DNA from: Candidatus Latescibacterota bacterium
Lineage (GTDB): Bacteria; Latescibacterota; UBA2968; UBA8231
Length of the DNA: 64,000 nt
Direction of reading: 5' to 3'
NCBI GenBank assembly: GCA_965242865.1
Contig: CBDETK010000013.1
Span: forward strand, 3,104,001-3,168,000
Part shown: in pieces, positions 44,122 through 60,788 of the stretch
Numbering within the stretch: position 1 is the stretch's first letter
Layout of the letters: every line of letters starts with the position of its first letter
Program-made: the position numbers and the translations under genes
The notes under the pieces: generated by a model
What the model was told of the DNA's origin: nothing
Database searches by the model: none
The model's input: the letters and a program-made list of their open reading frames with translations, nothing else

Positions 44122-45177
44122 ATGTCCATCATCCCCACGCGCCCTTTGCGCACCGGCGTCGAGCTAAGCACCCTCGGCTTTGGCGGCGCGCCTTTGGGCG
44201 AGCTTTTCGATCCGGTCAGCGAAACCCAAGCTCAAGCCACCCTGCAAGCGGCTTGGGACGCCGGCATCCGCTACTACGACACCGCCCCGTTTTACGGCTA
44301 TGGCAAAAGCGAGCACCGCCTCGGCCACTTTCTCCGCCAGCAAGAGCGCGGCGACTTTGTGCTCTCGACCAAGGTCGGCCGGGTGCTCACCGCCACCCGC
44401 GACCTCAATGCTTTTGAGCAAGGCTTCTGGCTCGGCGGCCTGCCCTTTGACTTCCGCTTCGACTACGGGTACGACGGCATCATGCGCTCGTGGGAAGACA
44501 GCTTGCAGCGGCTGAGCCTCAGCTCCATTGACCTGCTGTTGATCCACGACCTCGACAGCTTCTTCCACGACAGCGAGCAACGCTTCTCCGCCCATCTCAA
44601 CCGCCTGATCACCAGCGGCTGGCGCGCCCTCGACGAGCTGCGCTCCCAAGGGCTGATCAAGGCCGTCGGCGCCGGGATCAACCGCATGGGGGCCATGCCG
44701 CGCCTGCTCGACGGGGTGGATCTGGACTTCTGCATCGTCGCCATGCCCTACACGCTCTTGGACCAAGCCTCCCTCGACGAGGAATTTCCGCTCTGCGCGG
44801 AGCGCGACGTGCGCATCGTCATCGGCGCGGTGTTCGCTTCCGGCATCCTCGCCTCCGGCCCGGTCGAGGGCGCTCGCTACGCGTACGACACGGCCTCGCC
44901 GGCAATCCTCGCAAAGACTCGCCGCATCCAAGCCGTCTGCGAGCGGCACGACGTGCCCTTGCCGGCCGCGGCCATGCAGTTCCCGCTCGGGCACCCCCTC
45001 GTCTCGGCCATCATCCCCGGCGCGCTCGTCCCAGCGCACATCGAGACCAACGCCGAGTGGTTTAAGCACCCCATACCCACCGATCTGTGGGCCGAGCTAA
45101 AGGCCGAAGGATTGGTGCGGGCAGACGCTCCGACGCCGTGCGGGAATGAGAATGACGAGGTTAAAAATGGCCCCTGA
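44122..45177 (+). CDS. Aldo/keto reductase (D-threo-aldose dehydrogenase-like)
   Basis: LGFGGAPLG, YYDTAPFYGYGKSE, LSTKVGR, SLQRL..IDLLLIHD. Confidence 0.9.
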   Translation: MSIIPTRPLRTGVELSTLGFGGAPLGELFDPVSETQAQATLQAAWDAGIRYYDTAPFYGYGKSEHRLGHFLRQQERGDFVLSTKVGRVLTATRDLNAFEQGFWLGGLPFDFRFDYGYDGIMRSWEDSLQRLSLSSIDLLLIHDLDSFFHDSEQRFSAHLNRLITSGWRALDELRSQGLIKAVGAGINRMGAMPRLLDGVDLDFCIVAMPYTLLDQASLDEEFPLCAERDVRIVIGAVFASGILASGPVEGARYAYDTASPAILAKTRRIQAVCERHDVPLPAAAMQFPLGHPLVSAIIPGALVPAHIETNAEWFKHPIPTDLWAELKAEGLVRADAPTPCGNENDEVKNGP

Positions 45178-48100
45178 GCCTCCCAAAAAGAAGGTGTTTG
45201 ATCACATCCTCGGCGAACACTACACGGTCTTTGACGGGCTGGGCGGGATGCACGTGGAAGACATCTACCAAGACCGCAACGGTCTGCTCTGGATCGCCAC
45301 GGCCGACGGCGGCGTGAGTCGGTTCGACGGAGCGAACTTCGACACCTTTGGCCTGTCGAACGGGATGCCCCATCTCACGGTAATGACGATTGCCGAGGAC
45401 CAAGACGGGCGTCTGCTCTTCGGCACGCTGGGCGGCGGGCTGGCCATCTATGACGGGCAGGAGCTTCAGGTGCATACCACCGAGCACGGGCTGCCGTCCA
45501 ACGAGATTTTGAGCCTGCAACCCCAAGCCGATGGCTCGCTGCGGATGCTGACCGGCGCCGGGCTAGCCCAGTTCGCCGAGGGTAAGTGCGTGGAGCACAT
45601 GCCGGAAGTTGCGGGTCGGCCGCTCGGAGCGGTGTACGACATGGCGACCGACGCGGCCGGCACGACGTGGTTGGCGACGCGGGAGCGAGGGGTTATCAGC
45701 CTAGAGGGCCGCTCCCTGAGCGGAGACATGGGAAACAACTCGATTCAGTGGCCTTGGAAATTTGCCCAAGGCCCCTCCGGCCCGCTTTGGATCGCCTTTC
45801 ACCACACCGGCCCCGAACCCCTCGTAGGCCGCTACGATCCAAGCAGCCAACAACTCGAACTCATCGAGGTAGAAGACCACGCCGAGGGGGCCGAGGCCGT
45901 CCAGCACGGCACGCGGCACGTGCGCGTCGATGATAGAGGCTTGCTGTGGATGACCCGCCGGGGCGTCCTAGTGTACGACGGACAGGCTTGGCATCCCTTC
46001 TCCACCCAGTCGTCGGATAGCCACTTTTCGGATACGCGGCTGACGTACGAGGACCGCGAGGGGAACATCTGGTTGGGGCTGTGGGGCGGCGGGCTGGTTT
46101 TTTGCGATCCGCTCAGCGTCCAGCTATACACCCAAGCCGATGGCCTGCCCGACAGCGAGGTCCAGTGTCTGGGCGAAGATCGCGAAGGTCGGCTGTGGGT
46201 CGGTACGATGGGCGGCCTAGCCTGCCGCCAAGGCGACCGGATTCGCCCCGTAGGGCCAGAGCGGACGGTCTCAGCGCTGGTGGTAGATCGACAGGGGCAG
46301 GTCTGGAGCGGCGGGTCCGAAGGACAGGTCCTCAAGGCGACGGGCGGAGACGCCGAGGCGATTGAGGTGGCCGCGACGGTCCACACTGGAGAAGTCACCG
46401 GGCTGTGGGAAGACCGAGCAGGCCGCCTAAACGTCTGCACCGCCGAGGGGCGATTGGGGCGGATTGAACGAGATCGCTTTACGGCACTGGCACTAAAGGA
46501 GCAGTTTCCCCGCGATTGCACCGTCGCGCTGCAGGATGGAGCAGGCACCCTCTGGCTCGGCCTCAGCCGGAAAAAGGCCGCTATATGCTATTGCGAGGAC
46601 GGCCGTTTCCACACGCCTGCTGCGGCCGGCGTGGAAGACATCGCGGATGTGCGTGCTTTGTGCGAGTACCAAGGCGCACTCTGGATCGGGACGGAGAACC
46701 AGGGCCTGTTCGCCTTAGACTACGCTTCCGGGGCGATCCGCCGGTTTACGGTGGATCAGGGGGTGCTGTCCGTCAATGGGATCTCGGCTCTGATGAACGA
46801 TCCCCAAGGCAGCTTGTGGATTGGGACCAGCGGCGGGGGCGTACTGAGGTACGACGGCCAGAACTTCCATACCATTCGGCTGGGACAGGGCGCGTTGGAA
46901 AACATCGTCGAGGCCGTTGTGCGCGATAGCCGGGGCCGGCTGTGGTTTGGGACGCGCGCGGGTCTCATTGCGTATCGGCCCGGGGAGACGCGGCCGCGCA
47001 TCCTGCTGCGCCAAGTCGTGGCCGGGCAGACTTGGGACAAACCGCAAGCCGTGTCCTGCCCAGACAGCACGCCCGAGATTCAGTTTCACTTCCAAGGCAT
47101 CAGTTTCAGGAGCGGGGCCGGCCAGATGCGCTACAGCCACCGGCTCGTCGGCCACGGCCCGGCCGAAGAGTGGAGCGCCTTCTCGCCCGCCAACGAGGCG
47201 ACGTACCAAAACGTGCCGGCCGGCCAGTTCCACTTTGAGGTGCGGACCATGGATCGGGATGGCTTGGTGTCGGACATCGCCCGCCTAACGGTGCAAGTGG
47301 TCCCCACCCAATCTCGGCACCTAGAGCAAATGCTGCGGGCCGCACATCAGGGGTTTATCAGCCAAAGTCCGGCCATCGCCGAGCTTCTCGGTAAGCTCGA
47401 CTTAATAGCCGAGACGAATATGGCGGTGCTGGTGTTGGGCGAGACCGGGGTCGGCAAGGGGGTGTTGGCGCGGTTTATCCACCACCTTAGTCCGCGCCGA
47501 GCGAAGCCCTTTATATATGTCAACTGCGGGAACCTGCCCGCCGGGCTGGTAGAAAGCGAACTGTTCGGCCACGAGAAGGGGGCCTTTACCAGCGCCCATG
47601 CCCAAAGAATCGGCTACTTTGAACGAGCGAATGGCGGAACCTTGTTCCTCGACGAAGTGGGCGATTTACGCTTCGAGTCCCAACGGGTCTTGCTCCACAT
47701 CTTGGAGGAGAAACACCTGACGCGCGTCGGCGGCGGGAAGGAGATCCCGGTCGATGTGCGGATCGTTGCTGCGACCAACAGGGACCTAAAAGAGGACATT
47801 CGGGCGGGAACGTTCCGGGGGGATCTGCTCCATCGGCTGAACGAATTCTCAGCCGAACTGCCGCCCCTGCGGGAGCGTCGGGAGGATATCTCGCTCTTGG
47901 CGGTGCATTTTGCGAAAGAGTGGGCCCAAGAGGAAAGGCGGTCGGTGCCGCCTCTAAGCGACGAAGTGCTCGCGCACTTGGAGGGATATCCTTGGCCGGG
48001 GAACGTGCGTGAATTGGAGCATGTGATCAAGCAGGTGATGGTACTGAGCCGTGGGGATGTCATTCAGGTGGAGGATCTGCCGCAGCCAGCGGCCCTCTCT

Positions 48101-48358
48101 GTTGAACAAGGGGCTAACGAGGAGGCTAAAAAGGAGGCTAACGAGGAGGCTAACGAGGAGGCTAAAAAGTGGCAAACTTTCGACGCGGATGCGAGAGATG
48201 AAGCTGAAAAGCAGCGAATTTTGGCGGCTCTCCAAACCACGAACTGGCGGGTTGATGGACCGCGGGGGGCGGCTCGGTTATTGAACATGAGCGCGGAGAA
48301 GCTGCGCTACCGCATGCGCAAGCACGGATTGAAACGACCCAAGAAGTCGTCGAAGTAA
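45146..48358 (+). CDS. Sigma54-dependent activator fused to two-component-regulator beta-propeller (Reg_prop) and Y_Y_Y domains
   Basis: Repeats of D..G.LW(I/F)GT..G, YSHRL.G...W...Y.N.PAG.F.FEVR (Y_Y_Y), GETGVGKG, ESELFGHEKGAFTSA, LFLDEVG, WPGNVREL, Fis-type HTH. The start may be ATG 45167. Confidence 0.9.
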   Translation: MRMTRLKMAPEPPKKKVFDHILGEHYTVFDGLGGMHVEDIYQDRNGLLWIATADGGVSRFDGANFDTFGLSNGMPHLTVMTIAEDQDGRLLFGTLGGGLAIYDGQELQVHTTEHGLPSNEILSLQPQADGSLRMLTGAGLAQFAEGKCVEHMPEVAGRPLGAVYDMATDAAGTTWLATRERGVISLEGRSLSGDMGNNSIQWPWKFAQGPSGPLWIAFHHTGPEPLVGRYDPSSQQLELIEVEDHAEGAEAVQHGTRHVRVDDRGLLWMTRRGVLVYDGQAWHPFSTQSSDSHFSDTRLTYEDREGNIWLGLWGGGLVFCDPLSVQLYTQADGLPDSEVQCLGEDREGRLWVGTMGGLACRQGDRIRPVGPERTVSALVVDRQGQVWSGGSEGQVLKATGGDAEAIEVAATVHTGEVTGLWEDRAGRLNVCTAEGRLGRIERDRFTALALKEQFPRDCTVALQDGAGTLWLGLSRKKAAICYCEDGRFHTPAAAGVEDIADVRALCEYQGALWIGTENQGLFALDYASGAIRRFTVDQGVLSVNGISALMNDPQGSLWIGTSGGGVLRYDGQNFHTIRLGQGALENIVEAVVRDSRGRLWFGTRAGLIAYRPGETRPRILLRQVVAGQTWDKPQAVSCPDSTPEIQFHFQGISFRSGAGQMRYSHRLVGHGPAEEWSAFSPANEATYQNVPAGQFHFEVRTMDRDGLVSDIARLTVQVVPTQSRHLEQMLRAAHQGFISQSPAIAELLGKLDLIAETNMAVLVLGETGVGKGVLARFIHHLSPRRAKPFIYVNCGNLPAGLVESELFGHEKGAFTSAHAQRIGYFERANGGTLFLDEVGDLRFESQRVLLHILEEKHLTRVGGGKEIPVDVRIVAATNRDLKEDIRAGTFRGDLLHRLNEFSAELPPLRERREDISLLAVHFAKEWAQEERRSVPPLSDEVLAHLEGYPWPGNVRELEHVIKQVMVLSRGDVIQVEDLPQPAALSVEQGANEEAKKEANEEANEEAKKWQTFDADARDEAEKQRILAALQTTNWRVDGPRGAARLLNMSAEKLRYRMRKHGLKRPKKSSK
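48111..48169 (+). repeat. In-frame 12-nt tandem repeat in AAA-HTH linker
   Basis: GAGGCTAACGAG / GAGGCTAAAAAG units encoding ANEEAKKEANEEANEEAKK. Confidence 0.85.
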
Positions 48359-48364
48359 GAGCCC

Positions 48365-48443
48365 GTGCGAAACTGTAAAAAGTCGTGCAAAAGCTGTGCA
48401 AAAGCCGTGCAATTCAAACGACTTTTGCACAGCTTTTGCACAG
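48365..48443. promoter_or_regulatory. Candidate upstream activator sequences (enhancer)
   Basis: GTGCAAAAGC(T/C) direct repeats at 11-bp period followed by two inverted copies (A/G)CTTTTGCAC, ~130-210 bp upstream of the sigma54 promoter. Confidence 0.65.
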
Positions 48444-48573
48444 AAAATCGCCGATCAACATGGCGGCGACGCCTCATGCCGGCCTCGTAGAAAATTATTT
48501 TTAGCTATCCAATCCCTTGTTTTTCAATCCTTTAGGTAATCCTAAAGGATTTTTTTGTGCCGGACCGGCCTCG

Positions 48574-48590
48574 TTGGCACGAAACTTGCG
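48574..48590 (+). promoter_or_regulatory. Sigma54 (-24/-12) promoter
   Basis: TTGGCACGAAACTTGCG fits TGGCAC-N5-TTGC with GG-N10-GC spacing; 45 bp before the ATG at 48636. Confidence 0.9.
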
Positions 48591-48635: not shown

Positions 48636-49775
48636 ATGGAAGCCCTGCTCAACGATTTTGGCCGCGTATTTTTGCTGGAGCTGATTATGGCCTGCGCCAT
48701 TACCATCTGCGGTTGCTATACAACCTATACCGATATTCACTTCCGCCACATTCCCCATTGGGCTAGTTGGGGGCTGCTGGCCGTAGGTTTAATCAGCCAA
48801 GGTCTATTTTGGATGTGGGGTGTGGTCGAACTGGACCAAGCAGGCATCGTCTTGGTGGTCGGTTTTGCCGTTGGTTACATACTCTATATCTATGGATTTT
48901 GGGCACCCGGCGACGCCAAATTGTTTTGGGCTTTTGTCTTGGTGCTGCCGCCGACGTTCTTCCCTTCCACTTCCCTCGCCTCCTTTAACGCGCCGATTTG
49001 GGCACTCCTGCTCAACGCCTTAGTGCTCACCTGTTTTGTCTTGCTGGTGCTGTGGGCGGTTTTGCGCCGAGGTCGGTCCGCAGAAGTCGAGGGGGATTGG
49101 GACGCATCGCAATGGCTGTATCTAGGCTTGGAGTTGGCCGGCCTAATAGGGATCGTGCTGGGTTTTGGCACCTTTCTGCTGGCCGAGACCATGACCTTCG
49201 TAGAGGTCGTGATCGCCATCTTGGTACTCTATCTGCTCGTTGATCACTTCGTCCCCCAGAGGTTCCGGCTGACCTTGGCCCTGCCCGGTCTTATCCTCGG
49301 CGGCTACACGGCCCTAGAATCCGGCGAATGGCTGATCTACCTAGTGTTGTGGGGCCTCTCTTGGGGGGTGTTCTCCCTCTATAAAATCATCCGGCGCCTA
49401 GTCCCTCGGTACTTCGTACAGGCGATGCCTATTCAGGCGTTGCGCGCTGGCATGGTGCCGCAGGTGGCGATCTACGCGGTGGGCGGAGCGGCGGAATACC
49501 GGTGTGGCGCAGAGGTTGGGCAAGGGCAAGACATGCTGTGTTATCCCGGCCGGCCGTTGACCAAGGGGCAGGTGCGGACACTGCACAAAAAATCGGCGGG
49601 CGGTGCTTTCGCGTCGTTTGGCCATGAGTTGGCCGTGGAACTGGCCGTCCCTTTCGCGCCGATAATCGCCGGCGCTGGGGTGCTGACCATCGTCTTGGGC
49701 GGCAGTCTGATCAGACCTCTGATCCAGTTGTTCTCTCCGTGGCTGCCGTCGCTTCAGCAGTTGTTGGCGGGGTAA
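48636..49775 (+). CDS. A24-family prepilin/preflagellin-type membrane aspartic peptidase
   Basis: YTDIHFRHIPH (first Asp), WAPGDAKL (GxGD-like second Asp), many TM helices, C-terminal VPFAPII. Confidence 0.8.
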   Translation: MEALLNDFGRVFLLELIMACAITICGCYTTYTDIHFRHIPHWASWGLLAVGLISQGLFWMWGVVELDQAGIVLVVGFAVGYILYIYGFWAPGDAKLFWAFVLVLPPTFFPSTSLASFNAPIWALLLNALVLTCFVLLVLWAVLRRGRSAEVEGDWDASQWLYLGLELAGLIGIVLGFGTFLLAETMTFVEVVIAILVLYLLVDHFVPQRFRLTLALPGLILGGYTALESGEWLIYLVLWGLSWGVFSLYKIIRRLVPRYFVQAMPIQALRAGMVPQVAIYAVGGAAEYRCGAEVGQGQDMLCYPGRPLTKGQVRTLHKKSAGGAFASFGHELAVELAVPFAPIIAGAGVLTIVLGGSLIRPLIQLFSPWLPSLQQLLAG

Positions 49776-49777
49776 TC

Positions 49778-50404
49778 ATGAATCGGGATAGAAAAGACCC
49801 TGTAACAATCGCCTTTGGCGTCCTGTTCGTCGCGTTGCTGCCAACCTTTTTCCTGTTGGTGAGCCACTACCCGTCGATAGACGAGCGCGTGCGACAGTTG
49901 CAGCAGTTGCAGCCCAAGCCCTTGGTGCCTGCGCCTTCACTGGAGGACCTGTTGGCACGAGTCAGCCAAGCCGTATCCGACAGTACGCTCCAACTCCAAC
50001 AGGTATGGGCGGCCGAGCCGGAACCGACTTCTGGCCTAGTGGCCGCCTACGCGGTCGTGCGCGGCGGTCCAGCCGTCTATCGGCTGGTGGTGTTGCGCCA
50101 CGACATCGCCTGTAGCGTCTGCCGAGACGTGTTGGCCGCGGCTCTGTACGACAGCGACGCACTGGTGCAGATCTTCCTGCTCGACGATTGGGAGGTGCGC
50201 GGCGAGCGGGTTGATACCGCGCGGTTTTTGCGCCAATTCGCCGGCCGGCCGCTGGCGACCGAACTGGTTCTTGAGGCCAATGTCGATGGGATCAGCGGGG
50301 CCACGTTTTCAACCGGGGGCCTCGTCGAACAGCTCAACACGGCGGCGGCGTGGGTGCGGACGCATCCACTGACGCCGCTGGCAAGCGAGGGAGAAAACCT
50401 GTGA
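49778..50404 (+). CDS. Membrane-anchored FMN-binding domain protein with CxxC
   Basis: N-terminal TM helix, CSVC, FLRQFAG, VDGISGATFST flavinylation motif [S/T]GA[S/T]. Confidence 0.75.
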   Translation: MNRDRKDPVTIAFGVLFVALLPTFFLLVSHYPSIDERVRQLQQLQPKPLVPAPSLEDLLARVSQAVSDSTLQLQQVWAAEPEPTSGLVAAYAVVRGGPAVYRLVVLRHDIACSVCRDVLAAALYDSDALVQIFLLDDWEVRGERVDTARFLRQFAGRPLATELVLEANVDGISGATFSTGGLVEQLNTAAAWVRTHPLTPLASEGENL

Positions 50405-50940
50405 ACCCTCTCAGACCTAATCGCTGGGCTACGACCTTGATCGGGGCTACGGGCCTTCTGTTGGGAGCCTGTGTATTCTTGGCGGCCAAGATCGTCAATC
50501 CCCCGCCCATTGATCCGCTCGATGTGGCGTTTTGGGATTTGCTGGGTACACAAGCGGCTGTCTTGGAATTAGAGGGCCTGACGGGCGCGGACGAGGTTTC
50601 CAACGCACAGTTTGCCGGCGAGCCTTACCTGCTCATTTTCGCCGACCCGACTTGCAGTGCCTGCGAGGCCATTTACCCCCACTTGCTGCGCGCCTCGCAG
50701 GTGCAGGGCGTGAATGTCCTGTTCATTGCCTCGGGCGACCGGCAGGCGATGCAAGACAAAGTGGAGGAACACAGTTTTGCGTTCCCGGTGGCCTTTGATT
50801 CCCTGTTGACGGCTAACAAGCCCTTTGAGGTGGGTGCTCTTCCCGCCTCCATACTGGTCGATGCCGAAGGCAACATTGCCAAAGCCGCTACCGGCGATCA
50901 GGGTGCTGTCGCCGTAATACGCTTGGCTGGAAGTTCCTGA
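50401..50940 (+). CDS. Membrane-anchored TlpA/MauD-like thioredoxin-fold protein
   Basis: TM helix, LLIFADPTCSAC, FEVGALP.SILVDAEG. Confidence 0.8.
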   Translation: MNPLRPNRWATTLIGATGLLLGACVFLAAKIVNPPPIDPLDVAFWDLLGTQAAVLELEGLTGADEVSNAQFAGEPYLLIFADPTCSACEAIYPHLLRASQVQGVNVLFIASGDRQAMQDKVEEHSFAFPVAFDSLLTANKPFEVGALPASILVDAEGNIAKAATGDQGAVAVIRLAGSS

Positions 50941-50955
50941 AAGGATGGATGCGCC

Positions 50956-51672
50956 ATGTACGTTGTAACTCTCTTGCGTCGTCCGGTGGTGTGGACGGTG
51001 GTAGCCAGCGCCGCGGTCGTGGTCTTTTTGGCCTTGCGTCCCTCTTCGTCGGCCCTCTCGCCGGTGGTGTGGACCGAGCCGCCGGCCAACCCGCTGGCCG
51101 AGGTGCTGCGACCGGGGGATACCGCGCCGGACTTTGCTCTGCCGGCGGTACAGGGCGGCACGGTCGCCTTGAGCGCGTTACGGGGCAAGCCCGCTCTGCT
51201 GGCCTTTGTTACGGCGGAATGTCCGTATTGTCAGAAGCTATACCAGAAACTCGAAGCCTTTGAACTGAATGCGGACCAATACCTCGTATTCATCTGCCCA
51301 AGCGAGGAGGGTGCTCGGAAAATCAGCGCGACCTATTCCTTTACGTATCCGGTGTTGATCGACTCGGCTGGGGCGATTTCACAAGCGTACAAAACCCCTG
51401 GGGTGCCTGCGGTGTATCAGATAGACCCCGAGGGGAAGGTTGTGGATTTGGCGGTGGGGTGGCCATCGGCTTGGACGTTTGTCCGGGGTTTTGGCCGCCC
51501 CCAGCCGAGCGAAAGCTCTGGAGGTCATTTGCTCAATGACTCAGTCACCATTCTGGCTCAGAAAGGAGGTGCATTCCGTGCTCGTAGGTATGATGTTCGT
51601 CAGCAACCGCACTGGTTTGCTGATCCTTTTTCCTATTCTTTTTTCTATCACTCAAGGAGAATTGAGTTATGA
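50956..51672 (+). CDS. Membrane-anchored TlpA-like thiol:disulfide oxidoreductase
   Basis: TM helix, PGDTAPDFAL, LSALRGKP, CPYC, GVP..Y.IDPEGKV. Confidence 0.85.
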   Translation: MYVVTLLRRPVVWTVVASAAVVVFLALRPSSSALSPVVWTEPPANPLAEVLRPGDTAPDFALPAVQGGTVALSALRGKPALLAFVTAECPYCQKLYQKLEAFELNADQYLVFICPSEEGARKISATYSFTYPVLIDSAGAISQAYKTPGVPAVYQIDPEGKVVDLAVGWPSAWTFVRGFGRPQPSESSGGHLLNDSVTILAQKGGAFRARRYDVRQQPHWFADPFSYSFFYHSRRIEL

Positions 51673-52016
51673 ACTTTTTGACTTTGGTCTTGCAGTCGGC
51701 GCTGGTGCTGCCGCTGGTGGCTCCGCTGGTGGAGTTCGCCACGTCGACGAGCGGCCACGTTGAGCCGCGCGAGGGCTTGGCACTGGGCTGGCTGGGCAGC
51801 GTGGTGGCGGGGCTGGCGGTGGTGTTCGGCACGGCCGAACGGACCCAGGCCGATTCCTGCTACGGAATCTCCGAAGGCTCATCCGGAACGGTCTGCCGAA
51901 CGGACCAACCGTGCATTTATGATCACAATGGAAAGCCCAGAGGGTGGTATCAGGTCACATACTACCACAACTCTGCTACAGGCTGTGAATGGCGATCGGG
52001 GTCCTGCCAGTGCTGA
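51669..52016 (+). CDS. Small exported cysteine-rich precursor peptide
   Basis: AAGGAG RBS; 61-aa leader with two hydrophobic stretches ending TQA, then a 54-aa core with six Cys ending CQC. Confidence 0.7.
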   Translation: MNFLTLVLQSALVLPLVAPLVEFATSTSGHVEPREGLALGWLGSVVAGLAVVFGTAERTQADSCYGISEGSSGTVCRTDQPCIYDHNGKPRGWYQVTYYHNSATGCEWRSGSCQC

Positions 52017-52150
52017 GCCGTACTGCCGCTGTGGCACTATCGGGCCGGGTGCCACAGCGGCAGGTCGTGTTTTGGCTATCATGTCGGTCACTCGAACAAT
52101 GGTAGGTCGTTAGACCGGCTACTACATCCACTTACTGCCTCTGGAGGTGC

Positions 52151-54259
52151 ATGATGCGCGGCTTGCTTTTTGCGATTGGTTTGTTGATGGCTCCGGTTGG
52201 AGCCTTGGCTTTAACGTGGGATTTCGACGAGGGCACTACGTGGGGCTGGACCGCCCAAGAGGCGGGTTTCTACAGCACTGGGGGAACGGCTGATGCCACC
52301 ACGGTACACAGCGAAGTCGAAGACGGCGTTTGGCGTCTTGCGCCCGTGCCGGGGGCTCGAAAACCCACCCTTCAGTTGCGCTCGCCGCCGATCGAGGAAG
52401 ACTCGGCCCTATTCGACTGGGTCACTCTCCGGCTGCGCATCATCCACCATACCCCGACCGCGGGAACTCTCCTGATGCGATGGTTCAATTCCGAGTACAG
52501 AAGACTCCTCGGTCTGAACCGAATCGACTCCGCCTTTGTTCATTTTGAGACGAGCCGTTTTCAACTCTATCCCACTCAATGGGAAGACATCACCATAGAT
52601 ATACGCGCCTTAGAAGCGAACCCAGAAGTCGCGATCGTCTGGCAGGACACCCTTTTTGAATTCCATTTTGACTTGGACCTACACACCGCCGCACAGGGAC
52701 CGGCCGATCATCCGTCCTTTGTCGAAGTAGATTGGATTCAACTGACCGGGGTGGAAGAGTTATTGCTGGGGGAATTGTCGCCCCGGGCCATCGTCGTGGA
52801 GGCGGGCGTACCCGGCATGTTGTTCGACGAACCGGCCTTTTTTCCCCTCGTTGAGGGCATCAGCAGAATAACGAACATTAGACAATCGGCGGGTACTTTG
52901 GGGGATGTGGATGGCGATGGCGATGTGGATCTAGTGGCGGTTTGGGAACGCCGCACCGTCCCTAGAAGCGACTACGGCTGGATAATAGCCTCCAACGATG
53001 GCTTCGGCGGCTTTGCTCCCACCCAAGACGCGGCCACAAGTACATACCATCTCCAAGGGAGCGACTTCGACGGGGATGGGCTGTTAGACTTGGTCTTTAG
53101 TGGAAACCAGATCGTTGAACTGTGGCATAACGAGGGCGAGGGTGGGTTTGAGAGTATGCTACGGCTGTCCGGCGTCGAGTTCTCTGGCCTCGCTGATGGC
53201 GATGGCGATGGCGATGTGGACCTGTTGGTTTATCAGCTTGGCGACTTATCGCCTCATGTAGTGTTGTGGATCAACGATGGCACCGACGGGTTTGTCCGCA
53301 GCGATCGGTTCGATCTCGACAGCGAAGAAGAGCTCTACGCCTACTGGCCCTCCGGCCAACCGTTGGGTGAGGCCGTGCCCCTATTGTGGAACCGACCCTG
53401 CCACCTGCCCGTGGGGCCTTGGCAACTGACTCGGCCGTGGGCGGCCAGCGAGGAGCCGCCGCTGCTTTTCGAGACCGGAGTCAACCCCTGTGCGCTGCAC
53501 CTGCTCGCCGATGTGGATGGCGACGGGAATGTGGATTTACTCGGCTCCTCTGAGAGTAGAGAGTTCTACTTCGTCTCCAGAACCTACTACGGTTTGGACG
53601 TGTGGCGGTTGGACGCCCTGGGCGGGGTGTCCCGCCACTCCCTGCTCAGCCCGCAGGTACATGTGTCGCCTGGGGTCACTGCCAGCGACCTCAACGGCGA
53701 TGGCCTGCTGGACTTGGCCTTGGTCGATGGCAACTTAGCCACCGGACCGGCGCTGGTGGTGCTGGTCGGCCAGCGCGATGGGCTGCCCGTCGTCGAAGGC
53801 CGCTATCGGCTGCCGGGCACGGGCGGCCAAGTGCTCCCCGGCGACGTAAACGGCGATGGGGCTGTCGATCTGGTGGTGCTGGGGCGGAATATGGAAGGCG
53901 GTCCGGGCGGAGCCTTCGTCTTTCTCAACCAGAGTGCGCCAGCCACCGCCATCGCCGCTGAGACCACATCCACCCCCTCAGCCTTTGCCCTCGGTGCCAA
54001 CTACCCCAACCCATTCAATCCGGCCACGACCATCCCCCTTACCCTGCCCGCCAGTGCCGAGGCGGTGGACGTAACCATCTACAACGTCTTGGGGCAGCCG
54101 GTGCGCCGCGTATGGAACGGTTCGTTGGCGGCGGGCGCACACCGGCTGGCTTGGGATGGTCGGGACGCACAGGGACAGCCCGTCGCCGCAGGGGTCTATT
54201 GGTATCGGTTGCAGGTGGGCGATCAGACGCACACCCGCAAGATGATCAAAATCGAATAG
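52151..54259 (+). CDS. Secreted FG-GAP/VCBS repeat protein with FlgD/T9SS-A-like C-terminal domain, copy 1
   Basis: Signal peptide ALA|LTWDF, multiple D(V/F/L)(D/N)GDG..DL repeats, C-terminal LGANYPNPFNP...IYNVLGQ...WDGRD...GVYWYRL. Confidence 0.85.
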   Translation: MMRGLLFAIGLLMAPVGALALTWDFDEGTTWGWTAQEAGFYSTGGTADATTVHSEVEDGVWRLAPVPGARKPTLQLRSPPIEEDSALFDWVTLRLRIIHHTPTAGTLLMRWFNSEYRRLLGLNRIDSAFVHFETSRFQLYPTQWEDITIDIRALEANPEVAIVWQDTLFEFHFDLDLHTAAQGPADHPSFVEVDWIQLTGVEELLLGELSPRAIVVEAGVPGMLFDEPAFFPLVEGISRITNIRQSAGTLGDVDGDGDVDLVAVWERRTVPRSDYGWIIASNDGFGGFAPTQDAATSTYHLQGSDFDGDGLLDLVFSGNQIVELWHNEGEGGFESMLRLSGVEFSGLADGDGDGDVDLLVYQLGDLSPHVVLWINDGTDGFVRSDRFDLDSEEELYAYWPSGQPLGEAVPLLWNRPCHLPVGPWQLTRPWAASEEPPLLFETGVNPCALHLLADVDGDGNVDLLGSSESREFYFVSRTYYGLDVWRLDALGGVSRHSLLSPQVHVSPGVTASDLNGDGLLDLALVDGNLATGPALVVLVGQRDGLPVVEGRYRLPGTGGQVLPGDVNGDGAVDLVVLGRNMEGGPGGAFVFLNQSAPATAIAAETTSTPSAFALGANYPNPFNPATTIPLTLPASAEAVDVTIYNVLGQPVRRVWNGSLAAGAHRLAWDGRDAQGQPVAAGVYWYRLQVGDQTHTRKMIKIE

Positions 54260-54288
54260 ACGACCTAAGTTATCACTGGAGGCAAACT

Positions 54289-56403
54289 ATGCGCGGCTTG
54301 CTTTTTGCGATTGGTTTGTTGATGGCTCCGGTTGGAGCCTTGGCCCTAACGTGGGATTTCGACGAGGGCACCACGTGGGGCTGGACCGCCCAAGAATCGG
54401 GTTGGTACAGTACTAGGGGAACATTTGATGCCACCCTAGTGTACAGCGAAGTCGAAGACGGCGTCTGGCGCCTAGTGCCCGTGCCGGGGGCGCGAAAACC
54501 CACCCTTCAGTTGCGTTCACCACCGATTGGCGAAGACTCCGCCCTGTTCGACTATGTCACCCTCCGGCTCCGCATCATCCACCATACCCCGACGGAGGGA
54601 ACTCTCCAGATGCGATGGTTCAATTCCGAGTACACAAGACTCCTCGGTCTGAACCAACACGAGGGCGAGAATCAGTTTTATCGGGGCCGTTTGCAACTTT
54701 ACCCCACTCAATGGGAAGCCATCACCATAGATATACGCGCCTTAGAAGCCGCAGCCGTAGCCGACCCAGAAGTCGAACTCACCTGGCAGGACACCCTTTT
54801 TGAATTTCGTTTTGACTTGGACTTAAACACTACCGCGCAAGGGCCGGCCGATCATCCGTCCTTTGTCGAAGTAGATTGGATTCAACTGACCGGGGTGGAA
54901 GAGTTGCTGCTGGGGGAATTGCCGCCCCAGGAAATCGTCGTGGAGGCGGGCTTGCCCGGCGCGTTGTTCGACGAACCGGCCTTTTTTTCCCTCGTCGAGG
55001 GCATCAAAGGCAAAATGGGCATTGGACAATCGATGGGTACTTTGGGTGATGTGGATGGCGATGGCGATGTGGACCTCGTGGCGGTTTGGGATCGCTTCAC
55101 CGCTACCGGAAGCGACCACGGTTGGCTCATAGCCTCCAACGATGGTTTCGGCGGCTTTGTCCTCACCCAAGAGGAGGCCGCAAGCACCTACCTCAGTCTC
55201 CAAGGGAGCGACTTCGACGGAGATGGGCTGTTCGACTTGGTCTTTAGTGGAAACCAGATCGTTGAACTGTGGCATAACGAGGGCGAGGATGGGTTTGAGA
55301 GTACGCTGCGGCTGTCCGGCGTCGGGTTTGTTGGCCTCGCCGATGGCGATGGCGATGGCGATGTGGACCTGTTGGTTCATGAGCTTGACGACGAATCGCC
55401 CCACGTGGTGTTGTGGCTCAACGATGGCGACGCCGGATTCGTCCGCCGTGAGCGGTTCGATATCGATAGCGAAGAGGAACTCTATGCTTACCCGTCCTCC
55501 GGGGAACCGCCGGGCGAGGCCGTGCGCCTGTTGTGGACCCAACCCTGCTACCTACCCCAAGGGCCGTGGCAACTGACCCGGCCGTGGGCGGCCAGCGAGG
55601 AGCCATCGCTGTTTTTCGAGACCGGGGTCAACCCCTGTACGCTGCACTGGGTCGTTGATTTGGGTGGCGATGGAGCGGTGGAGTTCGTCGGTTCCCTTGA
55701 ACTGAGACGGTTCTCCTCCGACTACACCAACCACGGCTTGGTCGTGTGGCGTCTAGACGCTTCGGGCGGGATGTCTCGCCATCCCCTGCTCGGCTCGCAG
55801 GTACACGTGTCGCGTGGGGCCACGGCCAGCGACTTCAACGGCGATGGCCTGCTGGACTTGGCTGTGGTCGATGGCAACTTGGCGACTGGACCGGCGTTAG
55901 TGGTGCTGACCGGCCAGCGCGATGGGCTGCCCGTCGTCGAAGGCCGCTACCGGCTGCCGGGCACGGGCGGCCAAGTGCTCCCCGGCGACGTAAACGGCGA
56001 TGGGGCTGTCGATCTGGTGGTGCTGGGGCGGAATATGGAAGGCGGTCCGGGCGGAGCCTTCGTCTTTCTCAACCAGCATACGCCAGCCACCGCCATCGCC
56101 GCTGAGACGCCGACTACGCCCACGGCCTTTGTCCTCGGGGCCAACTATCCCAACCCGTTCAATCCAGCCACGACCATCCCCTTGGCACTGCCTGCCCAAG
56201 CCAGCGAGGTGGCCTTAACCATCTACAACGTCTTGGGGCAGCCCGTGCGCCGCGTGTGGGCGGGTTCGTTGGCCGCCGGCGAACACCGACTGGCTTGGGA
56301 TGGTCGGGACGCACAGGGACAGCCGGTCGCCGCGGGGGTCTATTGGTATCGGTTGCAGGTGGGCGATCAGACGCGCACCCGCAAGATGATCAAAATCGAA
56401 TAG
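54289..56403 (+). CDS. Secreted FG-GAP repeat protein, copy 2
   Basis: Close paralog of copy 1; GGAGG RBS before ATG 54289. Confidence 0.85.
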   Translation: MRGLLFAIGLLMAPVGALALTWDFDEGTTWGWTAQESGWYSTRGTFDATLVYSEVEDGVWRLVPVPGARKPTLQLRSPPIGEDSALFDYVTLRLRIIHHTPTEGTLQMRWFNSEYTRLLGLNQHEGENQFYRGRLQLYPTQWEAITIDIRALEAAAVADPEVELTWQDTLFEFRFDLDLNTTAQGPADHPSFVEVDWIQLTGVEELLLGELPPQEIVVEAGLPGALFDEPAFFSLVEGIKGKMGIGQSMGTLGDVDGDGDVDLVAVWDRFTATGSDHGWLIASNDGFGGFVLTQEEAASTYLSLQGSDFDGDGLFDLVFSGNQIVELWHNEGEDGFESTLRLSGVGFVGLADGDGDGDVDLLVHELDDESPHVVLWLNDGDAGFVRRERFDIDSEEELYAYPSSGEPPGEAVRLLWTQPCYLPQGPWQLTRPWAASEEPSLFFETGVNPCTLHWVVDLGGDGAVEFVGSLELRRFSSDYTNHGLVVWRLDASGGMSRHPLLGSQVHVSRGATASDFNGDGLLDLAVVDGNLATGPALVVLTGQRDGLPVVEGRYRLPGTGGQVLPGDVNGDGAVDLVVLGRNMEGGPGGAFVFLNQHTPATAIAAETPTTPTAFVLGANYPNPFNPATTIPLALPAQASEVALTIYNVLGQPVRRVWAGSLAAGEHRLAWDGRDAQGQPVAAGVYWYRLQVGDQTRTRKMIKIE

Positions 56404-56432
56404 ACGACCTAAGTTATCACTGGAGGCAAACT

Positions 56433-58544: not shown

Positions 58545-58573
58545 ACGACCGCAGTTATCACTGGAGGAGACCT

Positions 58574-60718: not shown

Positions 60719-60788
60719 GGTGAAAGTACCACAGGAGCAGGCGACCAGAACATCCTAAAACAAATCTATCACGCTCTGGAGGTGCATT

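What the first reader, a model, noticed from the sequence alone, without database searches (positions are those of the whole stretch)
51669..52016. Small precursor with double hydrophobic leader and 54-aa six-cysteine core
Seen: hydrophobic residues ~1-23, polar spacer ending EPREG, second hydrophobic stretch LALGWLGSVVAGLAVVFG, TQA, then DSCYG...C...C...CEWRSGSCQC. Inference: three disulfides formed by the adjacent thioredoxins. REG|L before a hydrophobic helix resembles a class III (A24) cleavage site, PREGL resembles a degenerate Tat motif, and TQA|D resembles a signal peptidase I site. It could be a defensin-like/RiPP-like effector or an atypical pilin.
Basis: partly seen in the sequence, partly recalled or inferred. 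Interest (0 to 1): 0.8.

Follow-up and report, generated by a model that had tools for sequence, protein, structure and literature searches.

The report
Cysteine-rich exported protein with peptidase-linked leader
This small gene encodes one of 13 related secreted, disulfide-rich mini-proteins of an uncultured Latescibacterota bacterium, and their unusual shared leader always sits next to a dedicated membrane protease, two thioredoxin-like proteins and a flavin-binding protein, which points to an undescribed protein-maturation pathway.

Summary
The ORF at 51669-52016 (115 aa) is real and as described. It has no Pfam or NCBIfam match. It is one of 13 paralogs in this genome: leaders are conserved (mean 70-88% identity) and Cys-rich cores are variable (31-38%).

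Across 168 Latescibacterota genomes, 35 carry the family and 32 carry a divergent A24 (GxGD-type) peptidase; 31 carry both. Of 46 near-full-length peptidase genes, 41 have a family member within 5 kb. All 23 loci inspected also carry thioredoxin-like genes, and 16 carry an FMN_bind-like gene. No pilus platform protein was found in the 24 other genomes of the genus.

The leader has two conserved candidate cleavage sites:
- a small residue (G 28/32, A 4/32) just before a 20-residue hydrophobic helix, which is class III-like;
- an AxA site before the core (A 29/32).

The core is modelled as a three-stranded beta-sheet (pLDDT 92) with no known fold match.

Best reading: an exported disulfide-rich protein whose leader is cut by the co-encoded A24-like peptidase, without any pilus. 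This rests on comparative evidence only; there is no biochemistry. The Tat and pilin ideas are not supported.

The parts
45146..48358 (+). Sigma-54-dependent activator (bEBP): Reg_prop/Y_Y_Y sensor repeats, AAA+ Sigma54_activat domain and HTH_8. No hydrophobic segment was detected, so it is probably cytoplasmic.
   Evidence: Pfam, (Sigma54_activat 8e-62, Reg_prop 5.7e-37). Hydropathy scan, (no segment). A 54%-identical paralog lies in the second cluster.
48386..48440 (.). Three near-palindromes, TTGCAC(A/G)GCTTTTGCA. They are a possible activator-binding site (inferred).
   Evidence: rows at 48386, 48397 and 48425. The function is inferred from their position about 150-190 nt upstream of the promoter.
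48526..48551 (+). Terminator-like hairpin with a T-run, ending the upstream gene.
   Evidence: The same hairpin-then-promoter arrangement precedes paralogs A2, A3 and B3-B7.
48575..48590 (+). Sigma-54 (-24/-12) promoter, TGGCACGAAACTTGCG, 46 nt before the peptidase gene.
   Evidence: 1 mismatch to the consensus I recalled. An equivalent site lies upstream of the peptidase gene in 6/6 orthologous type I loci.
48636..49775 (+). Divergent A24-family (GxGD-type) aspartyl peptidase, 379 aa and polytopic. The putative catalytic residues are D33 (YTD) and D93 (APGDAKL).
   Evidence: Pfam Peptidase_A24, 27.1 bits against a cut-off of 26.5; 30.7 bits. It is the only PF01478 match in the genome. D33 and D93 are invariant in 12/12 orthologs. 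Both motifs align in register with a classical prepilin peptidase (weak: hhalign probability 9.4%, E 0.0035). Several hydrophobic segments.
49739..50404 (+). Membrane-anchored FMN_bind-like (RnfG-like) protein with an [S/T]GA[S/T] flavinylation-type motif (DGISGATFS). The likely start is the Met at 49778.
   Evidence: Weak Pfam FMN_bind (0.0054, below cut-off). NCBIfam RnfG 2e-4. The motif is present in 14/15 homologs next to A24-like genes. ApbE is encoded elsewhere in the genome (275 bits). One N-terminal hydrophobic segment.
50350..50940 (+). Thioredoxin-like protein 1 (TlpA/ResA/MauD-like), CSAC motif, N-terminal membrane anchor.
   Evidence: Pfam AhpC-TSA 7.3e-10 and Redoxin. NCBIfam ResA and MauD below cut-off. 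The CxAC motif is conserved in homologs. Hydrophobic segment at 26-50.
50956..51672 (+). Thioredoxin-like protein 2, CPYC motif, N-terminal anchor. The thioredoxin domain spans aa 53-168. The last ~47 codons read through DNA that is non-coding 5' leader upstream of paralogs A2 and A3.
   Evidence: Pfam AhpC-TSA 3.1e-18. C(P/R/Q)YC is found in 17 of the 28 Trx2-like ORFs in the other loci. tblastn places Trx2 aa 192-238 upstream of A2 and A3; alignment.
51530..51668 (+). 5' leader region shared with paralogs A2 and A3, including the RBS AAGGAG at 51654-51659. This copy has no sigma-54 promoter of its own, whereas A2, A3 and B3-B7 do.
51669..51776 (+). Leader n-region, aa 1-36. It holds the subfamily-specific hydrophobic N-terminus (1-23), the conserved F-x-x-S-x-S-G motif (aa 23-29, nt 51735-51755), then P-R-E-G. 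The proposed A24-type cleavage is after G36.
   Evidence: Column counts: F23, S26, S28 and G29 each 30/32; R34 21/32; position 36 is G 28/32 and A 4/32. Distant members keep G/A/S there.
51777..51851 (+). Hydrophobic helix L37-A56 (W41 conserved in 24/32), followed by the c-region ERTQA. The proposed signal-peptidase-I-type site is A61|D62.
   Evidence: A61 29/32; position -3 is A/T/V in 29/32; segment 35-56; helix 33-54.
51852..52016 (+). 54-aa core with six Cys (C64, C78, C84, C106, C113, C115), modelled as a three-stranded antiparallel beta-sheet. Includes the stop codon.
   Evidence: four Cys invariant in 17/17; paired losses; pLDDT 92.
52023..52063 (+). Strong hairpin after the stop, followed by GTCGTGTTTTGG. 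It is a likely attenuator, terminator or stabiliser placed before the FG-GAP genes.
   Evidence: dG -41 kcal/mol, z -5.06. Hairpins also follow most other paralogs (by eye).
52151..62924 (+). Five tandem paralogs of ~700-aa FG-GAP repeat proteins with a C-terminal FlgD_ig / T9SS type A sorting domain: about 52151-54259, 54289-56403, 56433-58544, 58574-60718 and 60786-62924.
   Evidence: Pfam and NCBIfam; tblastn. This association holds only within this genus: no FG-GAP hit lies near the distant type III modules.

Best explanation
The ORF encodes the precursor of a small exported, disulfide-bonded beta-sheet protein. It belongs to an undescribed, multi-copy family so far seen in Latescibacterota.

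Proposed mechanism:
1. The precursor inserts into the inner membrane through its 20-residue hydrophobic helix. The N-terminus stays in the cytoplasm and the Cys-rich core faces the periplasm.
2. The co-transcribed, divergent A24-family (GxGD) aspartyl peptidase cuts at the cytoplasmic face after the conserved small residue (G36|L37). This matches how a prepilin peptidase cuts a class III signal peptide, but here no pilus or secretion filament is involved.
3. The two membrane-anchored thioredoxin-like proteins and the probably flavinylated FMN_bind-like protein in the same cassette set or correct the three disulfides of the core.
4. A second cut at the conserved AxA site (A61|D62), probably by signal peptidase I, then releases the 54-aa core. 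This second cut is required at least for the family members that carry a T9SS C-terminal sorting domain.

In this copy the cassette (peptidase, FMN_bind-like, Trx1, Trx2, small gene) is driven by a sigma-54 promoter under the adjacent activator.

What is shown: gene reality, family, leader architecture, conservation of both candidate sites, genomic coupling, and the absence of pilus machinery from the relatives searched.

What is inferred: both cleavages and their order, the direction of the redox chemistry, and the biological role of the mature protein. The 13 hypervariable copies suggest a binding or effector role rather than housekeeping.
For: Family and leader:
- 13 paralogs in the genome.
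- Leader identity averages 88% in the B group and 70% in the A group; core identity averages 31% and 38%.
- 83 representatives at E<=1e-3 in the 1.84-billion-protein library.

Candidate A24 site:
- Position 36 is G in 28/32 and A in 4/32 members, followed by L (27/32), x, L (27/32), G (32/32), W (24/32) and a hydrophobic helix.
- Distant members keep G, A or S at that position.

The peptidase:
- Pfam Peptidase_A24 scores above the cut-off.
- D33 and D93 (GDAKL) are invariant in 12/12 orthologs that share only ~39% identity between subtypes.
- Both motifs align with a classical prepilin peptidase.

Coupling of peptidase and family:
- In 168 genomes, 31 have both, 4 have only the small family, 1 has only the peptidase, and 132 have neither. 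The single peptidase-only genome does have an adjacent member when searched locally (E 2e-5).
- Of 46 near-full-length peptidase matches, 41 have a family member within 5 kb. Seventeen of those lie within 600 nt downstream on the same strand.
- Three different gene orders preserve the same set of genes.

Not a pilus system:
- PF00482 was found in 0/24 other genomes of the genus, with all candidates scored.
- PF00437 at E<=1e-10 was found in 6/24, and only weakly.
- The genome's own GspE/GspF/pseudopilin genes lie on a 41-kb contig of atypical composition.

Disulfides and redox partners:
- Cys pairs are gained and lost together.
- Thioredoxin-like genes lie next to the peptidase in 23/23 loci, and FMN_bind-like genes in 16/23.
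- CxxC motifs and the flavinylation motif are conserved (14/15 for the latter).
- ApbE is present.

Second cleavage site:
- A61 is conserved in 29/32 members.
- Leader-bearing members fused to a T9SS sorting domain exist (A4 and A5; P0008 and P0038), and SprA and PorU are encoded in the genome.

Regulation:
- A sigma-54 promoter precedes the cassette and is conserved in 6/6 orthologous loci.
- Perfect sigma-54 promoters precede other paralogs.

Predicted complex of peptidase and precursor: the verdict was 'weak support'. The median score was 0.39 and the best of 3 controls was 0.00. The mark was reached by 58 of 80 solved complexes and 2 of 110 mismatched pairs. At 0.60 or under, however, it was reached by only 7 of those 80 solved complexes and by both mismatches that passed. 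The runs agree in at least 93% of contacts and the partner's pLDDT is at least 69. This is a weak pass, and it was made with my own alignments.
Against: - No cleavage, topology or disulfide has been measured; everything is comparative or modelled.
- The leader departs from canonical class III peptides. It is 36 aa here (20 in B-type copies) against 6-26 in the cited review. Its N-terminal part is hydrophobic in this copy. Position +5 is W, not E.
- A conserved AxA site alone could explain export by the ordinary Sec and signal peptidase I route, which would leave the A24-like enzyme without a necessary role in maturation.
- The peptidase's Pfam score is barely above the cut-off (27.1 against 26.5). 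Its profile finds no solved A24 structure by sequence. The hhalign probability against a classical enzyme is only 9.4%.
- Co-occurrence counts come from related genomes, so they are not independent.
- Four genomes have weak small-family matches without the peptidase.
- Two peptidase copies in G126 have no family member within 58 kb.
- TlpA/ResA-type thioredoxins are usually reductants (recalled), so 'forming' the disulfides is not established.
- The complex prediction is a weak pass that, by the tool's own calibration, is more often wrong than right unless the pairing was likely beforehand.
Confidence: 0.55

Rival explanations
1. This is an ordinary Sec substrate. The whole 61-aa leader is one long signal peptide removed only by signal peptidase I at A61|D62. 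The A24-like protein is linked for another reason, for example to degrade the leftover signal peptide in the way signal peptide peptidase does, or to process a different protein of the cassette.
For: The AxA site is conserved (A 29/32 at -1; A/T/V 29/32 at -3). Members fused to T9SS sorting domains must leave the inner membrane (inference). GxGD proteases of the presenilin/SPP branch cut signal-peptide remnants (recalled).
Against: An n-region of 20-36 aa with near-invariant F-x-x-S-x-S-G and a small residue exactly at the helix boundary is not needed for Sec export. The FG-GAP proteins of the same operons use short ordinary signal peptides. The hydrophobic helix of 20 residues is long for a cleaved signal peptide (recalled rule). 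A remnant-clearing role would still make the leader the enzyme's substrate, so this rival differs mainly in order and purpose.
Confidence: 0.2
2. This is a bacteriocin-like or RiPP-like precursor. The conserved leader is a recognition tag for modification or export enzymes, and the variable core is the active peptide.
For: A conserved leader with a hypervariable core, in 13 copies. A hairpin follows the structural gene and precedes downstream genes. Transglutaminase-like and glycosyltransferase genes recur in both clusters.
Against: No radical SAM, lanthionine, YcaO or C39-peptidase/ABC exporter family appears among the neighbours scanned. The core is 46-60 aa and is confidently modelled as a folded beta-sheet domain. 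The leader contains a membrane-spanning helix, which cytoplasmic RiPP leaders lack (recalled). The conserved partners are a peptidase, thioredoxins and a flavoprotein.
Confidence: 0.07
3. The small protein is a redox-active component (C-terminal CxC) of an extracytoplasmic electron-transfer chain with the FMN_bind-like and thioredoxin-like proteins. This would resemble the DUF3570 / thioredoxin-like / DUF4266 systems.
For: A C-terminal C-x-C occurs in nearly all family members, including distant ones (by eye). A published precedent exists for a hybrid flavinylated / thioredoxin-like cluster with a small secreted CXC protein (PMC8238504, passages). The cassette is conserved.
Against: Thirteen hypervariable paralogs per genome are not expected of an electron carrier. 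In the A subfamily the last Cys is lost together with a distant Cys (C78), which implies a structural disulfide rather than a CxC redox pair. There is no Pfam DUF4266 match.
Confidence: 0.07
4. This is an atypical type IV pilin or pseudopilin that assembles into a filament after A24 cleavage.
For: The N-terminus is class III-like and the gene lies beside an A24 peptidase. The model shows a helix plus beta-meander. Pilin-type gene organisation, with a hairpin after the structural gene.
Against: No N_methyl or pilin family match. No T2SSF platform protein in 0/24 other genomes of the genus, 14 of which carry the peptidase. No strong T2SSE ATPase there either. Glu5 is replaced by Trp. The modelled helix is 22 residues with a flexible linker, not the ~50-residue pilin helix packed on the head (PMC4471445 passage). 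The conserved AxA site would remove the helix.
Confidence: 0.04
5. This is a Tat-exported protein, with PREGL as a degenerate twin-arginine motif.
For: There are basic residues in the c-region. A minority of members have RR (R at position 35 in 6/32).
Against: The twin arginine is not conserved (position 34 is R in 21/32; position 35 is R in 6/32). The surrounding consensus does not match S/T-R-R-x-F-L-K (recalled). The presence of dedicated periplasmic thioredoxins suggests folding after export.
Confidence: 0.02

Closest known systems
Class III signal peptides of type IV pilins, cut by prepilin peptidases (PilD, TadV, FlaK and PibD; peptidase family A24)
   Same: A cytoplasmic leader ending in a small residue (mostly Gly), followed directly by about 20 hydrophobic residues. 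A dedicated A24-family enzyme with two conserved Asp is encoded beside its presumed substrates. Many substrate genes are served by one peptidase.
   Different: No traffic ATPase or platform protein was found in the relatives searched. Trp replaces Glu at +5. The n-region is longer and carries its own conserved motif. A second conserved AxA site lies behind the helix. The cargo is a Cys-rich beta-sheet mini-domain rather than a pilin head. The cassette also includes thioredoxins and a flavin-binding protein.
Sulfolobus bindosome sugar-binding proteins (non-pilin proteins with class III signal peptides)
   Same: It is a precedent for class III-type leaders on proteins that are not filament subunits in the usual sense (PMC4471445 passage).
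   Different: It is archaeal. Surface localisation there still depends on a canonical type IV filament system (Bas). The cargo is large solute-binding proteins. No thioredoxin module is involved.
Hybrid flavinylated / thioredoxin-like extracytosolic clusters (DUF3570 + thioredoxin-like + DUF4266)
   Same: [quoted passage not shown]
   Different: The protein families differ: FMN_bind-like here, and no DUF4266 match. Those clusters are not described with an A24 peptidase in the passages read. Here the small protein is multi-copy and hypervariable.
Dedicated thioredoxin for a small disulfide-rich subunit (MauD with the methylamine dehydrogenase small subunit); recalled, apart from the NCBIfam hit
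   Same: Thioredoxin-like protein 1 gives a sub-threshold match to MauD (9.4e-10, 38 bits against a cut-off of 189). The concept is the same: a dedicated periplasmic thioredoxin-fold helper for a small, Cys-rich protein with a long leader.
   Different: It is not a member (far below the cut-off). There are no mau genes, no cofactor biogenesis, and the substrate family differs.
Gene families with a conserved signal or leader and a hypervariable disulfide-rich core (animal defensins and conopeptides, double-glycine bacteriocins); recalled analogy
   Same: A conserved leader, a hypervariable Cys framework, and many paralogs.
   Different: There is no sequence or fold relation. The processing machinery differs. 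No activity is known.

Membership tests
Class III signal peptide / type IV pilin | Hydrophilic leader of 6-26 aa ending in a conserved Gly (PMC4471445) | tested here: inconclusive
   The leader ends in G (28/32) or A (4/32). Its length is 20 aa in B-type copies but 36 aa here, and the N-terminal part is hydrophobic in this copy.
Class III signal peptide / type IV pilin | About 21 predominantly hydrophobic residues directly after the cleavage site | tested here: met
   L37-A56 is 20 residues. The hydropathy segment spans 35-56 and the modelled helix spans 33-54.
Class III signal peptide / type IV pilin | Glu at +5 | tested here: not met
   Position +5 (W41) is Trp in 24/32 members and never Glu. 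The cited review notes that Glu5 is often absent from archaeal pilins.
Class III signal peptide / type IV pilin | Match to the pilin N-terminal models (N_methyl and similar) | tested here: not met
   No Pfam or NCBIfam family matches. The genome's four N_methyl matches lie on contig C1 only.
Class III signal peptide / type IV pilin | Accompanying type IV filament machinery (traffic ATPase and platform protein) | tested here: not met
   PF00482 in 0/24 other genomes of the genus. PF00437 only weakly in 6/24, and not all candidates were scored. In the own genome both lie only on the compositionally atypical contig C1.
Class III signal peptide / type IV pilin | Lollipop fold: a ~50-residue alpha1 helix packed on a four-stranded beta-meander | tested here: inconclusive
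   The model has a 22-residue helix, a linker and a three-stranded sheet. Fold searches gave no clear match.
Peptidase family A24 (the neighbouring gene, 48636-49775) | Match to the family model above the curated cut-off | tested here: met
   27.1 bits against 26.5; 30.7 bits. Orthologs score 29.9-40 bits. The margin is small.
Peptidase family A24 (the neighbouring gene, 48636-49775) | Two catalytic Asp, the second in a GxGD-type motif (recalled definition) | tested here: met
   D33 and D93 are invariant in 12/12 orthologs. The second motif is A/G-P/A-G-D-A-K-L. Both align in register with a classical enzyme.
Peptidase family A24 (the neighbouring gene, 48636-49775) | Proteolysis of the proposed substrate | not testable with these tools
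   Only genomic linkage and a weak complex prediction (0.39 against a best control of 0.00) are available.
Sec signal peptide cut by signal peptidase I | Small residues at -1 and -3 after a hydrophobic region (recalled rule) | tested here: met
   A at -1 in 29/32 and A/T/V at -3 in 29/32. All distant members keep AxA-type sites. No SignalP-type predictor was available.
Sec signal peptide cut by signal peptidase I | Short basic n-region and an h-region of about 7-15 residues (recalled) | tested here: not met
   The n-region is 20-36 aa with a conserved motif, and the h-region is about 20 residues.
Tat signal peptide | Twin-arginine motif | tested here: not met
   R at position 34 in 21/32 and R at position 35 in 6/32.
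RiPP precursor | A co-encoded modifying enzyme of a known RiPP class | tested here: inconclusive
   None appears among the 25 neighbouring proteins scanned with Pfam. Transglutaminase-like and glycosyltransferase genes are present in the clusters.
Defensin / knottin-type folds | Structural match to a known disulfide-rich mini-protein fold | tested here: inconclusive
   For the core model (pLDDT 92), the best Foldseek E is 0.46. The best VIA Z is 3.6; a defensin-like bacteriocin reaches only Z 2.8.
DUF4266 (small secreted CXC protein of flavinylation clusters) | Pfam PF14086 match | tested here: not met
   No Pfam family at E<=0.01.

The most novel reading that the evidence does not exclude
A pilus-independent maturation pathway in bacteria. 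A dedicated GxGD (A24-type) intramembrane peptidase, two periplasmic thioredoxins and a flavinylated membrane protein together export, cut twice and oxidatively fold a diversified set of small disulfide-rich proteins. This would be a bacterial counterpart of defensin- or conotoxin-like gene families. The conserved cytoplasmic leader peptide released by the peptidase might itself act as a signal sensed by the cytoplasmic propeller domain of the adjacent sigma-54 activator, closing a feedback loop.
Probability: 0.25. Interest if true: 0.85.

Novelty: new variant of a known kind. Interest (0 to 1): 0.62.

Why it matters
Prepilin-type (A24) peptidases are known mainly as parts of type IV filament machines. 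Here a conserved, repeatedly rearranged cassette couples such a peptidase to non-pilin, Cys-rich substrates, two thioredoxins and a flavin-binding protein, in genomes where no filament machinery was found. If confirmed, three things would follow:
- class III-type leaders would gain a use in bacteria outside filament assembly;
- a new dedicated oxidative-folding module would be defined;
- a large, hypervariable family of secreted mini-proteins would be revealed in an uncultured phylum.

The proteins are small, so the central claim can be tested directly by co-expression and mass spectrometry.

Tried and rejected
Family searches. Pfam and NCBIfam give no family for the small protein. Rfam finds no RNA family in the window.

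Fold searches.
- The whole model returned only helical look-alikes of the leader: best Foldseek E 0.13 and best VIA Z 4.5.
- The core-only model found nothing convincing: best Foldseek E 0.46; best VIA Z 3.6, rmsd 3.2, 42 aligned residues.
- I do not claim a new fold from this.

Structure database by sequence. The A24-like protein and its profile find no solved relative.

ESM Atlas. Only weak leads appeared (best 0.82, an unnamed 92-aa cluster), and I did not use them.

Expression. No RNA holder is listed.

Thioredoxin-peptidase fusion. The 510-570-aa peptidase ORFs in some genomes looked like fusions. I rejected this because the thioredoxin hit lies in another reading frame (checked by hand for L081).

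Upstream ORF. A small ORF overlapping the 5' leader (51440-51763) is rejected because paralog A2 has a 2-nt gap there.

This copy's own promoter. The candidate I first picked by eye (AGGTGCATTCCGTGCT) is not supported. The real promoters of the paralogs align elsewhere, and this copy lacks one.

Housekeeping prepilin peptidase. I considered that the peptidase simply serves the GspE/GspF/pseudopilin genes on contig C1 and judged it unlikely. I cannot exclude it for this one genome.

Literature. Searches for Latescibacteria + prepilin peptidase (0 papers), Latescibacterota + cysteine-rich (0 papers) and prepilin peptidase / orphan / cysteine-rich / leader peptide (nothing relevant in the listing) found no description of this system. 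The library is partial.

Taxonomic range outside Latescibacterota could not be established. The 83 representatives carry no names.

One search was returned because the confidence field of the best explanation was missing.


Full report
OBSERVATION.

The window holds an ATG ORF at 51669-52016 (+), 115 aa. AAGGAG lies 9 nt upstream. A very stable hairpin follows the stop (dG -41 kcal/mol, z -5.06 against 200 shuffles).

It has a hydrophobic N-terminus, a spacer ending EPREG, the stretch LALGWLGSVVAGLAVVFG, TQA, and a 54-aa core with six Cys. A hydropathy scan finds two hydrophobic segments, 1-25 and 35-56. No Pfam or NCBIfam family matches.

A MULTI-COPY FAMILY WITH A CONSERVED LEADER.

The window is C13:3104001-3168000 of a 6.0-Mb assembly. 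Record titles of related loci name the lineage as Candidatus Latescibacterota.

A leader profile finds exactly 13 ORFs in the six-frame translation of the genome. The worst of these scores E 6.8e-22 and the next ORF scores 0.8. They are distributed as follows:
- five lie in the cluster containing the window (A1-A5);
- seven lie in a second cluster at 0.37-0.41 Mb (B1-B7);
- one lies elsewhere (C1).

A4 and A5 carry the same leader and one or two Cys-rich domains. These are fused to a FlgD_ig / T9SS-type C-terminal domain that is about 90% identical to the one on the neighbouring FG-GAP proteins.

Within the B group, leaders average 88% identity and cores 31%. Within the A group the values are 70% and 38%.

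A profile search of 1.84 billion cluster representatives finds 83 proteins at E<=1e-3, of which 31 score 1e-10 or better. Most are 75-135 aa and have the same architecture.

ANATOMY OF THE LEADER.

In a 32-sequence alignment that includes distant representatives, the column counts are as follows:
- F23, S26, S28 and G29 are each conserved in 30/32;
- P33 and R34 are each conserved in 21/32;
- position 36 is G in 28/32 and A in 4/32;
- then come L37 (27/32), L39 (27/32), G40 (32/32) and W41 (24/32), followed by a hydrophobic run to about residue 56;
- position 61 is A in 29/32 and position 59 is A/T/V in 29/32.

More distant members found next to peptidase genes in other genera keep the same plan. 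The residue before the helix is G, A or S, and an AxA-type site is always present.

The first hydrophobic stretch of this copy is not conserved. B-type and distant members begin with a short hydrophilic sequence.

The leader thus carries two conserved candidate processing sites. One lies at the cytoplasmic end of a membrane-spanning helix and one at its periplasmic end. [quoted passage not shown] It differs in its length and in having Trp instead of Glu at +5.

THE CORE.

AlphaFold2 models the core as a three-stranded antiparallel sheet. The core-only model has mean pLDDT 92, and the core reaches pLDDT 85-95 within the full-length model.

In the 17-sequence core alignment, four Cys are invariant and two further pairs come and go together:
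- the inserted 'NC' with the Cys of 'YCH';
- the Cys of 'VC' (C78 here) with the last Cys (C115 here).

This pattern is expected for disulfide partners. This copy lacks the first optional pair, which leaves six Cys. A C-terminal C-x-C is seen by eye in nearly all members. Fold searches gave no convincing match.

THE NEIGHBOURS FORM A CASSETTE.

Upstream on the same strand, in order, lie:
- a sigma-54 activator with Reg_prop/Y_Y_Y repeats and no hydrophobic segment;
- three near-palindromes, a terminator-like hairpin and a -24/-12 promoter, TGGCACGAAACTTGCG;
- a 379-aa polytopic protein matching Peptidase_A24 just above the cut-off;
- a membrane-anchored FMN_bind-like protein with the motif DGISGATFS;
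- two membrane-anchored thioredoxin-like proteins (CSAC and CPYC);
- the small gene.

This copy has no promoter of its own but shares the ~110-140-nt 5' region of paralogs A2 and A3. Those two, and B3-B7, are each preceded by a terminator hairpin and a perfect sigma-54 promoter. The equivalent promoter precedes the peptidase gene in 6/6 orthologous loci.

Downstream lie five ~700-aa FG-GAP proteins with T9SS-type C-terminal domains. The genome encodes SprA and PorU.

IS THE PEPTIDASE REALLY A24-LIKE, AND IS IT TIED TO THE FAMILY?

Twelve orthologs of two subtypes, only ~39% identical between subtypes, keep D33 (YTD) and D93 (GDAKL) invariant. Both motifs align in register with a classical prepilin peptidase taken from another assembly, although the profile comparison is weak (probability 9.4%, E 0.0035). 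It is the only PF01478 match in the genome.

In the 24 other genomes of the genus, the small family is found in 16 and the peptidase in 14, all of which also have the family.

Across 168 genomes of the phylum, G000 included:
- 35 have the family and 32 have the peptidase;
- 31 have both, 4 have only weak family matches, 1 has only the peptidase, and 132 have neither;
- the single peptidase-only genome does have an adjacent member on local search (E 2e-5).

Of 46 near-full-length peptidase matches, 41 have a family member within 5 kb on the same contig, and 17 have one within 600 nt downstream on the same strand. Two of the five exceptions sit on short contigs.

These genomes are related, so the counts overstate independence. 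However, the gene order differs between lineages while the gene set is kept:
- type I: peptidase, FMN_bind-like, Trx, Trx, small gene;
- type II: small genes, FMN_bind-like, peptidase, Trx, Trx;
- type III: FMN_bind-like, Trx, Trx, peptidase, small gene.

Thioredoxin-like genes adjoin the peptidase in 23/23 loci examined, and FMN_bind-like genes in 16/23; the flanks were short in the type III loci. The flavinylation-type motif is present in 14/15 FMN_bind-like homologs. The motif definition comes from PMC8238504 (passage). ApbE is encoded in the genome.

A complex prediction for peptidase plus precursor gave 'weak support'. The median score was 0.39 and the best of 3 controls was 0.00. The mark was reached by 58 of 80 solved complexes and 2 of 110 mismatched pairs. 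At 0.60 or under, it was reached by only 7 of those 80 and by both mismatches that passed. The runs agree in at least 93% of contacts and the partner's pLDDT is at least 69. I treat this as a minor point.

NOT A PILUS.

The own genome has GspE, GspF and four N_methyl pseudopilins, but all lie on a 41-kb contig. That contig's tetranucleotide distance from the chromosome (0.250) exceeds that of all 40 random 40-kb chromosome chunks (maximum 0.221).

Among the 24 other genomes of the genus:
- none has a T2SSF match, with all candidates scored;
- only 6 have weak T2SSE matches (1e-24 to 1e-30), though not all candidates were scored.

Fourteen of these genomes nevertheless carry the peptidase. The model shows a 22-residue helix joined by a linker to the sheet, not a pilin lollipop.

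MECHANISM PROPOSED.

Shown:
- a real, conserved gene family with a tripartite leader;
- a co-inherited cassette of an A24-like peptidase, two thioredoxin-like proteins and an FMN_bind-like protein;
- sigma-54 control;
- no filament machinery in the relatives searched.

Inferred:
- membrane insertion with the N-terminus in the cytoplasm;
- cleavage after G36 by the A24-like enzyme;
- disulfide formation or isomerisation by the thioredoxin/flavoprotein module;
- a second cut at A61|D62 that releases the core.

The second cut is needed, by inference, for members that carry a T9SS sorting domain, because such cargo has to leave the inner membrane. The order of the two cuts, the direction of the redox chemistry and the role of the mature proteins are open. 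Thirteen hypervariable copies, each heading a sigma-54 transcription unit in this genus and usually followed by FG-GAP surface proteins, suggest a binding or effector role rather than a housekeeping one.

RIVALS.

- The main rival is an ordinary Sec and signal peptidase I substrate, with the A24-like enzyme acting on the remnant or on something else. It explains the AxA site. It does not explain the conserved n-region motif, or the small residue placed exactly at the helix boundary.
- RiPP or bacteriocin-type, redox-carrier, pilin and Tat readings are each weakened by specific results. These are listed under Rival explanations and Membership tests.

COMPARISON AND NOVELTY.

The system works most like class III signal peptide processing, but it fails several membership features of type IV pilins: the family models, Glu5, the machinery and probably the fold. 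The closest precedent for non-pilin class III substrates is the archaeal bindosome, which still needs a filament system. The closest precedent for the redox part is the hybrid flavinylated / thioredoxin-like clusters with a small CXC protein, which involve different families.

Three literature searches found no description of this cassette. The library is partial and supplements were closed. I rate it a new variant of a known kind.

LIMITS.

- There are no experimental data, and no RNA holder is listed (this is no evidence either way).
- No signal-peptide predictor was available.
- The taxonomy of the 83 representatives is unknown.
- The sigma-54 consensus, the signal peptidase rule, the Tat consensus, the GxGD definition and the reductant habit of TlpA/ResA proteins are all recalled, not tested.

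Noticed in passing
window 52151-62924; C13:3156151-3203562 and C13:367168-410382: There are two large paralogous arrays, each of about 15 FG-GAP repeat proteins of ~700 aa with T9SS-type C-terminal domains (60-84% identical within the first array and ~30-35% between arrays). Small leader-bearing genes are interspersed, each with its own sigma-54 promoter. Both arrays also contain recurring DUF4159, transglutaminase-like, GT2 glycosyltransferase and TPR genes, and a paralogous sigma-54 activator.
   Followed up: partly
window 45146-48358: The sigma-54 activator carries Reg_prop/Y_Y_Y repeats, which are usually periplasmic sensors in hybrid two-component systems (recalled). It has no hydrophobic segment at all, so the propeller is probably cytoplasmic. 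Its ligand is unknown.
   Followed up: partly
window 51530-51672: The last ~47 codons of the second thioredoxin ORF are homologous at the DNA level to the non-coding 5' leader of paralogs A2 and A3. The true C-terminus of this thioredoxin, or the origin of its tail by cassette insertion, is unclear.
   Followed up: partly
G000 contig C1:26570-30284: The assembly's only GspE, GspF and N_methyl pseudopilin genes sit on a 41-kb contig of atypical tetranucleotide composition. No other genome of the genus has a T2SSF match. The contig may be foreign to this organism. All 12 small contigs are compositionally more distant from the chromosome than the mean chromosome chunk.
   Followed up: partly
protein P0016: A 174-aa database protein joins the middle of an A24-like peptidase directly to the conserved leader of the small family. 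It is either an assembly chimera or a natural deletion between the two genes.
   Followed up: no
L074 (G115:C1:4012800-4018400), about 3338-4340: In a genome of another family, three small family genes follow the peptidase gene in tandem. Their leaders are nearly identical and their cores differ.
   Followed up: partly
L086 (G016:C113:10300-12300), 588-1358: The one classical prepilin peptidase found in the genus lies on a short contig. Its Ile/Phe/Asn-rich sequence points to low-GC DNA, so it is probably contamination of that assembly.
   Followed up: partly
genomes G026, G028, G030 (family f3): These genomes have strong GspE and GspF matches but no PF01478 match at E<=0.01. Either their prepilin peptidase is missing from the assemblies or the search misses some A24 enzymes, which is a caveat for absence claims.
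   Followed up: no
window 48500-52200: DNA runs from at least two studies hold half or more of the sampled words of this stretch. Three of them are labelled sponge metagenome (shares 0.54-0.61).
   Followed up: no
C13:5150894-5159286: The PorU sortase gene (5150894-5154055) and the single ApbE gene (5158462-5159286) lie within about 4.4 kb of each other. It was not examined whether this is meaningful.
   Followed up: no
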